Below are positions 40,864 through 44,390 of a stretch of DNA of 64,000 nucleotides, piece by piece. The stretch is from the NCBI RefSeq assembly GCF_036507355.1, contig NZ_AP027877.1; one strand, given 5' to 3'. The notes beneath the pieces are model-generated. The model was given only the letters and a program-made list of their open reading frames with translations. It did not search any database and had not been told where the DNA came from. The stretch comes from Escherichia coli (GTDB taxonomy: Bacteria; Pseudomonadota; Gammaproteobacteria; Enterobacterales; Enterobacteriaceae). The translations under genes were made by a program, and so were the position numbers. Numbering within the stretch: the stretch's first letter is position 1; every line of letters starts with the position of its first letter.

Positions 40864-41916
40864 ATGAAAAAGACAGCTATCGCGATTGCAGTGGCACTGG
40901 CTGGTTTCGCTACCGTAGCGCAGGCCGCTCCGAAAGATAACACCTGGTACACTGGTGCTAAACTGGGCTGGTCCCAGTACCATGACACTGGTTTCATCGA
41001 CAACAATGGCCCGACCCATGAAAACCAACTGGGCGCTGGTGCTTTTGGTGGTTACCAGGTTAACCCGTATGTTGGCTTTGAAATGGGTTACGACTGGTTA
41101 GGTCGTATGCCGTACAAAGGCGACAACATCAACGGCGCATACAAAGCTCAGGGCGTTCAGCTGACCGCTAAACTGGGTTACCCAATCACTGACGATCTGG
41201 ACGTTTACACTCGTCTGGGTGGTATGGTATGGCGTGCAGACACCAAGTCTAACGTACCTGGTGGCGTATCCACTAAAGACCACGACACCGGCGTTTCTCC
41301 GGTCTTCGCTGGCGGTGTTGAGTACGCGATCACTCCTGAAATCGCTACCCGTCTGGAATACCAGTGGACCAACAACATCGGTGATGCACACACCATCGGC
41401 ACTCGTCCGGACAACGGCATGCTGAGCCTGGGTGTTTCCTACCGTTTCGGTCAGGGCGAAGCAGCTCCAGTAGTTGCTCCGGCTCCAGCTCCGGCACCGG
41501 AAGTACAGACCAAGCACTTCACTCTGAAGTCTGACGTTCTGTTCAACTTCAACAAAGCAACCCTGAAACCGGAAGGTCAGGCTGCTCTGGATCAGCTGTA
41601 CAGCCAGCTGAGCAACTTGGATCCGAAAGACGGTTCCGTAGTTGTTCTGGGTTACACCGACCGCATCGGTTCTGACGCTTACAACCAGGGTCTGTCCGAG
41701 CGCCGTGCTCAGTCTGTTGTTGATTACCTGATCTCCAAAGGTATCCCGGCAGACAAGATCTCCGCACGTGGTATGGGCGAATCCAACCCGGTTACTGGCA
41801 ACACCTGTGACAACGTGAAACAGCGTGCTGCACTGATCGACTGCCTGGCTCCGGATCGTCGCGTAGAGATCGAAGTTAAAGGTATCAAAGACGTTGTAAC
41901 TCAGCCGCAGGCTTAA
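40864..41916 (+). CDS. ompA: Outer membrane protein A (variant surface-loop allele)
   Basis: ORF 40792..41916; recognised start [21 protein letters not shown] at 40864; 350 aa with AP-repeat hinge and C-terminal OmpA domain. Confidence 0.95.
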
Positions 41917-42629: not shown

Positions 42630-44390
42630 TTGACCATTACGAAACTTGCATGGCGTGACCTGGTTCCTGATACCGATAGCTATCAGGAAATATTTGCTCA
42701 GCCACATTTGATTGACGAAAACGATCCTTTATTCAGTTATACTCAACCGCGACTGCAATTTGCGCTGGAGCAGTTGCTGCATACGCGAGCATCCTCCTCT
42801 TTTATGCTGGCGAAGGCCCCGGAAGAGTCTGAGTATCTGAATCTTATTGCCGATGCCGCGCGTACGCTGCAAAGCGATGCAGGCCAACTGGTGGGCGGTC
42901 ACTATGAGGTTTCCGGCCACACCATCCGCTTACGTAACGCAGTGAGTGCAGATGATAATTTTGCGACTTTAACGCAAGTTGTCGCTGCCGACTGGGTAGA
43001 AGCGGAGCAACTCTTTGGCTGCCTGCGCCAGTTTAATGGCGACATTACCCTGCAGCCTGGTCTGGTGCATCAGGCAAATGGCGGTATTCTCATCATCTCT
43101 TTGCGTACACTGCTGGCGCAACCTCTGCTGTGGATGCGGCTGAAAAATATCGTTAACCGCGAGCGTTTTGACTGGGTTGCGTTTGATGAGTCGCGCCCTC
43201 TCCCCGTCTCTGTGCCTTCGATGCCATTGAAGCTGAAAGTCATTCTGGTAGGCGAACGCGAATCATTGGCTGATTTCCAGGAGATGGAGCCAGAGCTTTC
43301 AGAGCAGGCTATTTATAGCGAATTTGAAGATACTCTGCAGATTGTCGATGCGGAGTCAGTAAGCCAGTGGTGTCGCTGGGTGACATTTACCGCCAGACAT
43401 AATCACTTACCTGCACCGGGAGCGGATTCCTGGCCGGTACTTATCCGCGAAGCAGTACGCTACACCGGTGAACAAGAAACACTTCCGCTTAGCCCGCAGT
43501 GGATCCTCCGCCAGTGTAAAGAGGTCGCCTCCCTGTGTGATGGCGACACCTTCTCCGGCGAGCAGCTAAACTTAATGCTGCAGCAGCGTGAATGGCGCGA
43601 AGGTTTCCTCGCTGAACGTATGCAGGATGAGATCCTTCAGGAGCAAATCCTGATTGAAACCGAAGGCGAACGCATCGGGCAAATTAACGCCCTTTCGGTC
43701 ATTGAATTTCCGGGCCATCCACGCGCTTTTGGCGAACCTTCTCGCATTAGCTGCGTTGTGCATATTGGCGATGGTGAATTCACCGACATCGAACGCAAAG
43801 CGGAGCTTGGCGGCAATATCCATGCGAAAGGGATGATGATCATGCAGGCGTTCCTGATGTCGGAACTACAGCTTGAGCAACAGATCCCCTTCTCAGCATC
43901 GCTGACATTTGAGCAGTCATACAGTGAAGTGGATGGCGATAGTGCCTCGATGGCTGAGCTCTGCGCCCTGATAAGCGCCCTCGCCGATGTGCCGGTGAAT
44001 CAGAGTATCGCTATCACAGGTTCAGTCGATCAGTTCGGCCGCGTTCAGCCGGTCGGTGGTTTAAATGAGAAAATCGAAGGCTTCTTTGCTATTTGCCAGC
44101 AACGTGAGTTAACGGGGAAACAAGGTGTCATTATCCCCACTGCTAACATTCGCCATTTAAGTCTTCACAGTGAACTGGTGAAAGCGGTAGAAGAAGGCAA
44201 ATTCACCATCTGGGCAGTAGACGATGTGACTGACGCACTGCCGTTATTATTAAATCTGGTGTGGGATGGCGAAGGCCAAACGACGCTGATGCAAACCATC
44301 CAGGAACGTATCGCGCAAGCATCGCAACAGGAAGGACGTCACCGTTTTCCATGGCCATTACGTTGGCTGAACTGGTTTATTCCGAACTGA
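42630..44390 (+). CDS. ycbZ: Lon-like protease homolog YcbZ (LonH)
   Basis: 586-aa ORF; Lon proteolytic-domain-like C-terminus. Confidence 0.9.

What the first reader, a model, noticed from the sequence alone, without database searches (positions are those of the whole stretch)
40999..41280. OmpA surface-loop allele differs from the K-12 reference in extracellular loops
The translation shows GFIDNNG (K-12 GFINNNG by my recollection), [10 protein letters not shown] (K-12 YKGSVENGAY), DLDVYTRL (K-12 DLDIYTRL) and an expanded loop [16 protein letters not shown] (K-12 SNVYGKNHDTGV), while the barrel and C-terminal domain look conserved. These loops are phage and colicin receptor and immune-recognition sites, so the allele may change susceptibility.
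Basis: partly seen in the sequence, partly recalled or inferred. Interest (0 to 1): 0.45.

Follow-up and report, generated by a model that had tools for sequence, protein, structure and literature searches.

The report
Known long-loop variant of OmpA

Summary
ompA is at 40864-41916 (+). Its product differs from K-12 MG1655 OmpA only at N25D, S66D/V67N/E68I, I93V, Y111P, a 4-residue insertion (GVST) and N114D. The first and last differing codons are exactly 40999 and 41280.

The allele is not new:
- The identical 350-aa protein is RefSeq WP_032223517.1, seen on 868 contigs.
- Liao et al. 2017 list its loop pattern (D / DNI / [11 protein letters not shown] / H).
- It is a minor subtype (about 0.4% of 5,426 complete E. 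coli genomes) of the common "OmpA-long" class (39%). A crystal structure of that class exists (9FZD).

The gene is a mosaic. Against K-12, synonymous divergence is 0.38 in the loop2-loop3 block and 0-0.013 in the rest of the gene. The loop blocks reassort among strains. One O157:H7 strain acquired this allele within an imported tract of at least 38 kb. A divergent Escherichia species carries the same cassette.

Published experiments show that natural OmpA loop variants control infection by some T4-like phages and binding by nanobodies. An altered receptor phenotype is therefore plausible, but it has not been tested for this allele. Verdict: real, correctly read, already known, low interest.

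The parts
40864..41916 (+). ompA coding sequence (350 codons plus stop). The product is identical to RefSeq WP_032223517.1.
   Evidence: ORF and translation. NCBIfam NF008071 'porin OmpA' equivalog, 676 bits against a cut-off of 277. Identical to the OmpA of strains XJ6-3 and O157:H7 TR01.
40864..40926 (+). Signal peptide (21 codons, [21 protein letters not shown]), identical to K-12.
   Evidence: Alignment to MG1655. The 21-residue signal peptide is as stated in PMC9560509.
40999..41001 (+). Loop 1 variant codon: Asp25 (K-12 has Asn; other alleles have Pro).
   Evidence: Position 25 is polymorphic N/D/P in Liao 2017. Residue 25 is one of the positions implicated in K3/Ox2 phage binding, as cited in PMC12032242.
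41122..41130 (+). Loop 2 variant codons: Asp66-Asn67-Ile68 (K-12 has Ser-Val-Glu). All 9 bases differ.
   Evidence: DNI is found in 46% of isolates in Liao 2017.
41203..41205 (+). Val93 (K-12 has Ile), in the transmembrane strand leading to loop 3.
   Evidence: Liao 2017 reports 50% I and 50% V, in a transmembrane position.
41257..41280 (+). Loop 3 variant: Pro111, a 4-residue insertion Gly-Val-Ser-Thr (41263-41274), and Asp in place of K-12 Asn114. The loop reads [11 protein letters not shown] against K-12 SNVYGKN.
   Evidence: The exact 60-nt loop-3 DNA is present in 22 of 5,426 complete E. coli genomes.
41122..41280 (+). Divergent loop2-to-loop3 haplotype block: 33 of the 36 ompA nucleotide differences from K-12, including 9 synonymous ones.
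   Evidence: difference map. (dS 0.38 inside the block against 0-0.013 outside). (the blocks reassort among 11 strains). (the same block, with 1 nt difference over 263 nt, in an Escherichia genome 8% diverged elsewhere).

Best explanation
This is a functional, full-length ompA gene. It carries a natural and already catalogued allele of the 'OmpA-long' class: outer-loop pattern D25 / DNI66-68 / [11 protein letters not shown] / H149, with a K-12-type (alpha) C-terminal domain. The allele is a mosaic. A short, anciently diverged cassette spanning loop 2, residue 93 and loop 3, plus a single loop-1 change, sits in an otherwise K-12-like gene. Such cassettes are shuffled among E. coli lineages and related species by homologous recombination. 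The changes replace the tips of three of the four surface loops. They lengthen loop 3 by four residues, remove Tyr111 and Glu68, and add two net negative charges (N25D and N114D). This remodels the surface used by OmpA-dependent phage adhesins, colicins, antibodies and nanobodies, while leaving the barrel, loop 4 and the periplasmic domain unchanged. Shown here: the identity of the allele, its mosaic structure, its frequency and its mobility. Inferred: that this particular allele changes phage or colicin sensitivity. The likely pattern is resistance to narrow-range 'type 2' Gp38 phages that need the K-12-type loops 2 and 3, with continued sensitivity to broad-range 'type 1' phages.
For: - Identity and integrity. 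Pfam PF01389 plus PF00691 are on record for the identical protein.
- Already known: the exact protein is on 868 contigs and in 1,676 index blocks, named 'MULTISPECIES: porin OmpA [Enterobacteriaceae]'. Liao 2017 Table 3A has the row '[16 protein letters not shown]', isolate 249.
- Class membership: the closest solved structure is 9FZD (OmpA-long). It differs from the window's barrel only at positions 25, 93, 108, 114 and 116 (PMC12259851).
- Frequency: 2,133 of 5,426 complete genomes match the block over its full length, meaning the long loop-3 class. The exact loop-3 DNA is in 22 genomes. The whole variable region is at least 99% identical in 20 genomes.
- Mosaic structure and recombination. 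O157:H7 TR01 carries this allele inside a tract of at least 38 kb that is about 1% diverged from a typical O157:H7, while the adjacent prophage is essentially identical. Genomes with equally similar flanks (99.3-99.4%) have different loop regions (100% against 97.7%).
- Cross-species sharing.
- Functional relevance of such variants: PMC12032242, PMC9560509, PMC12259851.
Against: - No phenotype was measured for this allele, here or in the papers I could read. Liao's isolate 249 pattern was not among the seven alleles they expressed.
- Broad-range Gp38 phages infected all eight ECOR OmpA variants, so the allele may not protect against many phages.
- Nielsen 2020 concluded that chromosomal history explains most of the OmpA pattern distribution. 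The genomes closest to the window in the flanks also carry the allele. Its presence here needs no special selective explanation.
- I could not see the figures that define loop types 2a, 3a and 3b in PMC12032242. The predicted resistance to type 2 phages is therefore an inference.
Confidence: 0.88

Rival explanations
1. The allele is a selectively neutral polymorphism inherited vertically with the local chromosome. It has no meaningful effect on phage, colicin or immune recognition in this strain, for example because O-antigen or capsule masks OmpA.
For: The genomes closest to the window over 22 kb (PapRG-04-4, 100416, ET350, CUWW06, OkiPb01695) also carry the allele, which is consistent with descent. 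Nielsen 2020 attributes most of the pattern distribution to chromosomal history. Dense O-antigen blocks access of bulky ligands to OmpA in clinical strains (PMC12259851). Type 1 Gp38 phages infect all variants.
Against: Amino-acid changes are confined to the tips of the exposed loops, while the rest of the protein is invariant. dS of 0.38 in a 159-nt block inside a gene with dS near 0 elsewhere implies long-term maintenance of alternative cassettes. Isogenic swaps of sister alleles change phage host range, surface charge and elastase killing.
Confidence: 0.2
2. The loop2-loop3 cassette is a relatively recent import into E. coli from another enterobacterial species (a cryptic Escherichia clade, or something Salmonella-like), rather than an old polymorphism maintained within E. 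coli.
For: A genome labelled E. coli SCPM-O-B-8794, which is a separate GTDB species representative, is only 91.8% identical to the window over 14 kb. Yet it differs by 1 nt in the 263 nt spanning the cassette, against 25 differences in the following 616 nt of ompA. Salmonella OmpAs carry DNI, V93 and SN.PGG.STKD-like long loops.
Against: The direction of transfer is unknown. The long class is present in 39% of E. coli genomes and in several sub-variants, which suggests long residence in the species. ompA is highly conserved at synonymous sites generally (97% identity overall), which weakens the contrast. Only one species representative matched the exact 39-mer.
Confidence: 0.3
3. The differences are a sequencing or assembly artefact, or the reader mis-remembered the K-12 sequence.
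For: None found.
Against: The 301-nt variable region is 100% identical in three independent complete genomes and at least 99% identical in 20. The frame is intact.
Confidence: 0.01

Closest known systems
Unnamed outer-loop pattern 'D / DNI / [11 protein letters not shown] / H' with C-terminal pattern alpha (isolate 249) in Liao et al. 2017, Front Microbiol 8:708; RefSeq WP_032223517.1
   Same: The same residues at positions 25, 66-68, 108-114 and 149. The whole 350-aa protein is identical to WP_032223517.1 in E. coli XJ6-3 and O157:H7 TR01.
   Different: Nothing at the protein level. At the DNA level the window differs by 1-6 synonymous sites from those strains.
OmpA-long reference isoform (Liao patterns II/III; Power's ompA2; PDB 9FZD)
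   Same: DNI in loop 2, a loop 3 lengthened by four residues with the NVPGG core and Asp114, and the same barrel.
   Different: The window has Asp25 not Pro25, Val93 not Ile93, and [11 protein letters not shown] rather than ANVPGGASFKD (Ser108, Val114, Thr116). Whether nanobody Nb39 or the ompA2 PCR assay would recognise it is unknown.
K-12 MG1655 OmpA (Liao pattern I, alpha; 'OmpA-short'; PDB 1BXW/1QJP)
   Same: Identical signal peptide, barrel strands, loop 4, linker and C-terminal domain. The same locus between sulA and matP.
   Different: N25D, SVE to DNI, I93V, and SNVYGKN to [11 protein letters not shown]. dS is 0.38 across the loop2-loop3 block.
OmpA of E. coli 042 (EAEC) and SMS-3-5
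   Same: 042 has the identical N-terminal domain, including [14 protein letters not shown]-3-5 has DNI, V93 and SNVPGGASTKD.
   Different: 042 has Thr203 in the C-terminal domain and a different synonymous haplotype around loop 1. SMS-3-5 has Pro25, Ala114 and Ala251. From my own recollection, not checked here: Shigella dysenteriae OmpA also carries an SNVPGGASTKD-type loop 3.

Membership tests
Porin OmpA (NCBIfam NF008071 equivalog; Pfam PF01389 OmpA_membrane plus PF00691 OmpA) | Full-length match to the curated OmpA model above its cut-off | tested here: met
   676.4 bits against a cut-off of 277, covering residues 1-350.
Porin OmpA (NCBIfam NF008071 equivalog; Pfam PF01389 OmpA_membrane plus PF00691 OmpA) | Two-domain architecture: an N-terminal 8-stranded barrel and a C-terminal peptidoglycan-binding OmpA-like domain | tested here: met
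   PF13505/PF01389 and PF00691 are recorded for the identical protein. The barrel aligns end to end with the solved OmpA barrels 9FZD, 1BXW, 1QJP and 1G90.
Porin OmpA (NCBIfam NF008071 equivalog; Pfam PF01389 OmpA_membrane plus PF00691 OmpA) | Orthologous chromosomal position (sxy-sulA-ompA-matP-ycbZ) | tested here: met
   The same neighbours as in MG1655 and ten other E. coli genomes.
OmpA-long isoform (PMC12259851) | Extracellular loop 3 longer than in K-12 OmpA | tested here: met
   A 4-residue insertion. The loop reads [11 protein letters not shown] against SNVYGKN. It aligns without gaps to the 9FZD chain.
OmpA-long isoform (PMC12259851) | Loop sequences identical to the OmpA-long reference, so that nanobody Nb39 binds | tested here: not met
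   Loop residues 25, 108, 114 and 116 differ from the 9FZD sequence. Binding itself cannot be tested with these tools.
Liao et al. named outer-loop patterns I-VII | The exact residue combination at positions 25 / 66-68 / 108-114 / 149 | tested here: not met
   None of patterns I-VII is D / DNI / [11 protein letters not shown] / H. The window matches the unnamed row for isolate 249.
Liao et al. C-terminal pattern alpha | Ala175, Asn203, Gly251 | tested here: met
   The C-terminal domain is identical to MG1655, and MG1655 is (I, alpha).
ompA2 allele of Power et al. 2006 | A positive PCR with a forward primer lying in the DNA that encodes ANVPGGA of loop 3 | tested here: inconclusive
   The window encodes SNVPGGV. 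The first and last codons of that stretch differ from ANVPGGA alleles. I could not read the primer sequence because the paper is not held.

The most novel reading that the evidence does not exclude
The loop2-residue93-loop3 cassette (DNI...V93...[11 protein letters not shown]) may be a trans-species polymorphism. It would be older than the split of the Escherichia lineages, and perhaps older than the Escherichia-Salmonella split, and kept alongside the short K-12-type cassette by phage- or immune-driven balancing selection. This rare D25 combination might then have its own receptor phenotype, such as escape from type 2 Gp38 phages, from colicins U/Y that read loop 1, and from both published nanobodies.
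Probability: 0.25. Interest if true: 0.35.

Novelty: already known. Interest (0 to 1): 0.12.

Why it matters
OmpA loops are docking sites for T-even-type phages, several colicins, host defence proteins, and diagnostic or vaccine binders. Knowing which allele a strain carries therefore helps predict phage-therapy host range and the coverage of OmpA-directed reagents. For this window the value is only annotation. The strain should be typed as OmpA-long, subtype [16 protein letters not shown]-alpha. That subtype is a minor allele, about 0.4% of complete E. coli genomes, and reagents or phages tuned to the two major isoforms may miss it. It opens no new biological question.

Tried and rejected
- I tried to read the primary phage-receptor papers: Power 2006 (PMC1694255), Morona 1985 (PMC214285) and Koebnik 1999 (PMC93845). 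None is held, so their content is cited only through later papers.
- I looked for supplementary tables defining the eight ECOR OmpA variants in PMC12032242. None is held. I could not assign the window's allele to a variant number. The text mentions T137 in loop 3 of 'variant 7', which fits an ...STKD loop, but this is only a hint.
An exact pattern cannot find cassettes with synonymous changes in other genera, so the scan says little about wider distribution.
- A literature search on colicin U and loop 1 gave only reference-list hits.
- I considered an artefact or a mis-remembered reference, and rejected both.
- I considered that the window might be Shigella rather than E. coli, because of two IS1 copies and only 99.1-99.4% identity to any complete E. 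coli genome. I could not test this, because no Shigella collection was available.
- I did not run structure prediction, because a crystal structure of a sister allele exists.

Full report
**Observation.** The finding lies inside a 350-codon ORF on the + strand, with its ATG at 40864 and its stop ending at 41916. Its neighbours are sxy (-), sulA (+), matP (-) and ycbZ (+). This is the arrangement at the ompA locus of E. coli K-12 MG1655, which I fetched as a reference, and of ten other E. coli genomes. The protein scores 676 bits against NCBI's 'porin OmpA' equivalog model, whose cut-off is 277. It also carries the two expected Pfam domains.

I aligned the translation to MG1655 OmpA. In mature numbering, the two proteins differ only at these points:
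- N25D;
- S66D, V67N and E68I;
- I93V;
- Y111P;
- an insertion of Gly-Val-Ser-Thr;
- N114D.

Everything else is identical, including loop 4, the Ala-Pro linker and the periplasmic domain. The coordinates 40999-41280 are exactly the first and last differing codons. The only inaccuracy is that I93V sits in a membrane strand, not in a loop (Liao 2017).

**More than chance.** At the DNA level, 33 of the 36 ompA differences from K-12 (counting gap columns) lie between 41122 and 41280. Counting substitutions only, 21 of 24 fall in that 159-nt stretch (P = 7e-15), and so do 9 of 11 synonymous-type changes (P = 2e-6). Nei-Gojobori estimates give dS = 0.38 and dN = 0.10 inside the block. Upstream, dS is 0; downstream it is 0.013. 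So this is not a gene that accumulated a few loop mutations. It is a K-12-like gene that carries an old, separately evolved cassette covering loop 2, residue 93 and loop 3, plus a single change in loop 1.

**What it is.**
- The exact 350-aa sequence is already in public databases. It appears on 868 contigs under the names 'MULTISPECIES: porin OmpA [Enterobacteriaceae]' and UniRef A0A2A3W346, and in 1,676 index blocks of the assembly collection.
- It is identical to RefSeq WP_032223517.1 of E. coli XJ6-3 and O157:H7 TR01.
- Liao et al. 2017 typed ompA in 78 environmental isolates. Their Table 3A lists exactly this outer-loop combination, 'D / DNI / [11 protein letters not shown] / H', for isolate 249, as one of the unnamed minor patterns. 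The C-terminal domain is their alpha type, because it equals K-12.
- In the nomenclature of a 2025 nanobody study, the allele belongs to 'OmpA-long', as opposed to the K-12 'OmpA-short'. The crystal structure of the OmpA-long reference (9FZD) differs from the window's barrel at only five positions: 25, 93, 108, 114 and 116.

**Frequency in 5,426 complete E. coli genomes.**
- 2,133 (39%) match the loop2-loop3 block over its full length, meaning the long loop-3 class.
- Only 22 carry the exact 60-nt loop-3 DNA. Another 40 differ by one base. The sequenced example of such a one-base difference, strain SMS-3-5, encodes SNVPGGASTKD.
- The whole variable region (301 nt) is at least 99% identical in 20 genomes and 100% identical in 3.
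- Hosts of those genomes include cattle, pigs, chickens, baboons, a frog, humans and wastewater.

This is therefore a minor subtype (about 0.4%) of a very common class.

**Mosaic structure and mobility.** In an alignment of 11 strains, the variable sites form three blocks: around codon 25, around codons 66-68, and from codon 93 through loop 3. The blocks occur in different combinations. Examples:
- GN05476 combines D25 with SVE and the short loop 3.
- E. coli 042 has the window's entire N-terminal protein sequence, but a different synonymous haplotype around loop 1 and Thr203 in the C-terminal domain.
- SMS-3-5 combines P25 with DNI, V93 and SNVPGGASTKD.

Genomes whose 22-kb flanks are about equally close to the window (99.3-99.4%) split into two groups. 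One has an identical or near-identical loop region; the other is only 97.7% identical there.

The clearest case is O157:H7 strain TR01. It shows 0-1 differences per kb from a typical O157:H7 across the prophage next to yccA. From the prophage junction onward, it is about 1% diverged for at least 38 kb, and that tract includes ompA with the window's allele. This is a large homologous-recombination import that swapped the OmpA type within an otherwise clonal pathogen.

The cassette also crosses species lines. A genome labelled E. coli SCPM-O-B-8794, which is a separate species representative, is 91.8% identical to the window over 14 kb. It has DNI, V93 and [11 protein letters not shown], with a single nucleotide difference in 263 nt, against 25 differences in the next 616 nt of ompA. 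Salmonella enterica OmpAs from the same 90% protein cluster have DNI, V93 and long SN.PGG.STKD-like loops. The long form may therefore be the older state and the K-12 short form the derived one. That last point is an inference.

**How it most likely works.** The substitutions sit at the tips of loops 1, 2 and 3, in segments Liao et al. describe as highly mobile for loops 1 and 2. They lengthen loop 3 by four residues, remove Tyr111 and Glu68, and add Asp25 and Asp114, a net charge change of -2.

These are the surfaces used by OmpA-specific ligands:
- Residues 25, 70, 110 and 154 were implicated in K3 and Ox2 binding (cited in PMC12032242).
- Colicins U and Y are reported to read loop 1 (the title of Bosak 2016, in the reference list seen).

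Direct experiments with natural alleles exist:
[quoted passage not shown] All were infected by 'type 1' Gp38 phages. Only three were infected by 'type 2' phages, which appear to need particular loop 3 forms together with one loop 2 form.
- Seven alleles changed surface charge, hydrophobicity, biofilm formation and elastase killing.
- Nanobodies distinguish the short and long isoforms through loop 3, and they fail on minor loop variants.

From this I infer that the window's allele presents a receptor surface that K-12-tuned ligands, such as type 2 Gp38 phages or nanobody Nb01, will not recognise. Ligands tuned to the major long isoform may recognise it only partly, because loop positions 25, 108, 114 and 116 differ. 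This step is inferred, not shown. No paper I could read tested this allele, and I could not see the figure that defines the loop types.

**Rival explanations.**
- Neutral, vertically inherited variation. This reading is compatible with the allele being shared by the window's closest relatives and with Nielsen's conclusion that chromosomal history explains most of the pattern distribution. It does not explain why amino-acid change is confined to loop tips, or why a block with dS 0.38 persists in an otherwise near-identical gene.
- Recent import from another species, as opposed to an old polymorphism within E. coli. This remains open.
- Artefact or faulty recollection. This is excluded.

**Novelty and verdict.** However, the allele, its class, its distribution, a crystal structure of a sister allele and the functional relevance of such variation are all published. 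It is an already known allele of a known polymorphism. Its only practical use is strain typing for phage or binder coverage. Interest is low.

**Context noticed along the way.**
- The window is ordinary E. coli-type core chromosome: torS, etk/gfc, app, hya, serT, yccA through ompA, pqi, uup and the elf fimbrial operon. There is no prophage at the serT-yccA site, which is occupied in O157:H7.
- No complete E. coli genome is closer than 99.1-99.4%.
- Two IS1 copies, 91% identical to each other, disrupt the elf operon at 61270-62037 and 63111-63878.

Noticed in passing
window 61270-62037 and 63111-63878: There are two 768-nt IS1 copies, each with InsA (91 aa) and InsB (167 aa) ORFs and terminal inverted repeats. 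They are 91% identical to each other. The first splits the elfC fimbrial usher gene: the C-terminal part ends at 61283 and the N-terminal fragment lies at 62033-62296. An overlap of about 8 nt in the alignment to TR01 suggests a target-site duplication. The second lies upstream of elfD and replaces about 695 nt that are present in O157:H7 TR01, where elfA lies. The elf (ycbQ) fimbrial operon is therefore probably inactive. Taken together with the 99.1-99.4% best identity to complete E. coli genomes, this could hint at a Shigella-like or IS-rich lineage.
   Followed up: partly
window 60060-60066 (elfC): Relative to O157:H7 TR01, the window lacks about 186 nt inside elfC. The alignment breaks between TR01 (reverse-complement) positions 43555 and 43741. 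This is a further lesion or a divergent segment in the usher gene.
   Followed up: no
L012/L013 (O157:H7 TR01 against O157:H7 ECP19-798), region equivalent to window ~29200-64000: TR01 is nearly identical to a typical O157:H7 in the prophage next to yccA. From the prophage junction onward it is about 1% diverged for at least 38 kb, through ompA to ssu. This is a large recombinational import that replaced the short OmpA allele with the window's long allele in an O157:H7 strain.
   Followed up: partly
L003 5122-5160 (NZ_JAATUR010000002.1, 'E. coli' SCPM-O-B-8794): This genome is only 91.8% identical to the window over 14 kb, so it is a divergent Escherichia lineage. Even so, its ompA loop2-loop3 cassette differs from the window's by 1 nt in 263. 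It combines that cassette with N25, N149 and L161.
   Followed up: partly
window 29205-29292: A tRNA-Ser(TGA) gene (serT) lies next to yccA. In O157:H7 genomes a prophage occupies the corresponding yccA-proximal site, and the window's similarity to TR01 begins at 29233. In the window no prophage is there: hya, app and the other usual genes follow directly.
   Followed up: partly
P0010 (E. coli OmpA, 349 aa, from the cluster): One database OmpA variant has a tandem duplication in loop 2 (KGSVESVENG). It is another example of length variation in the surface loops.
   Followed up: no
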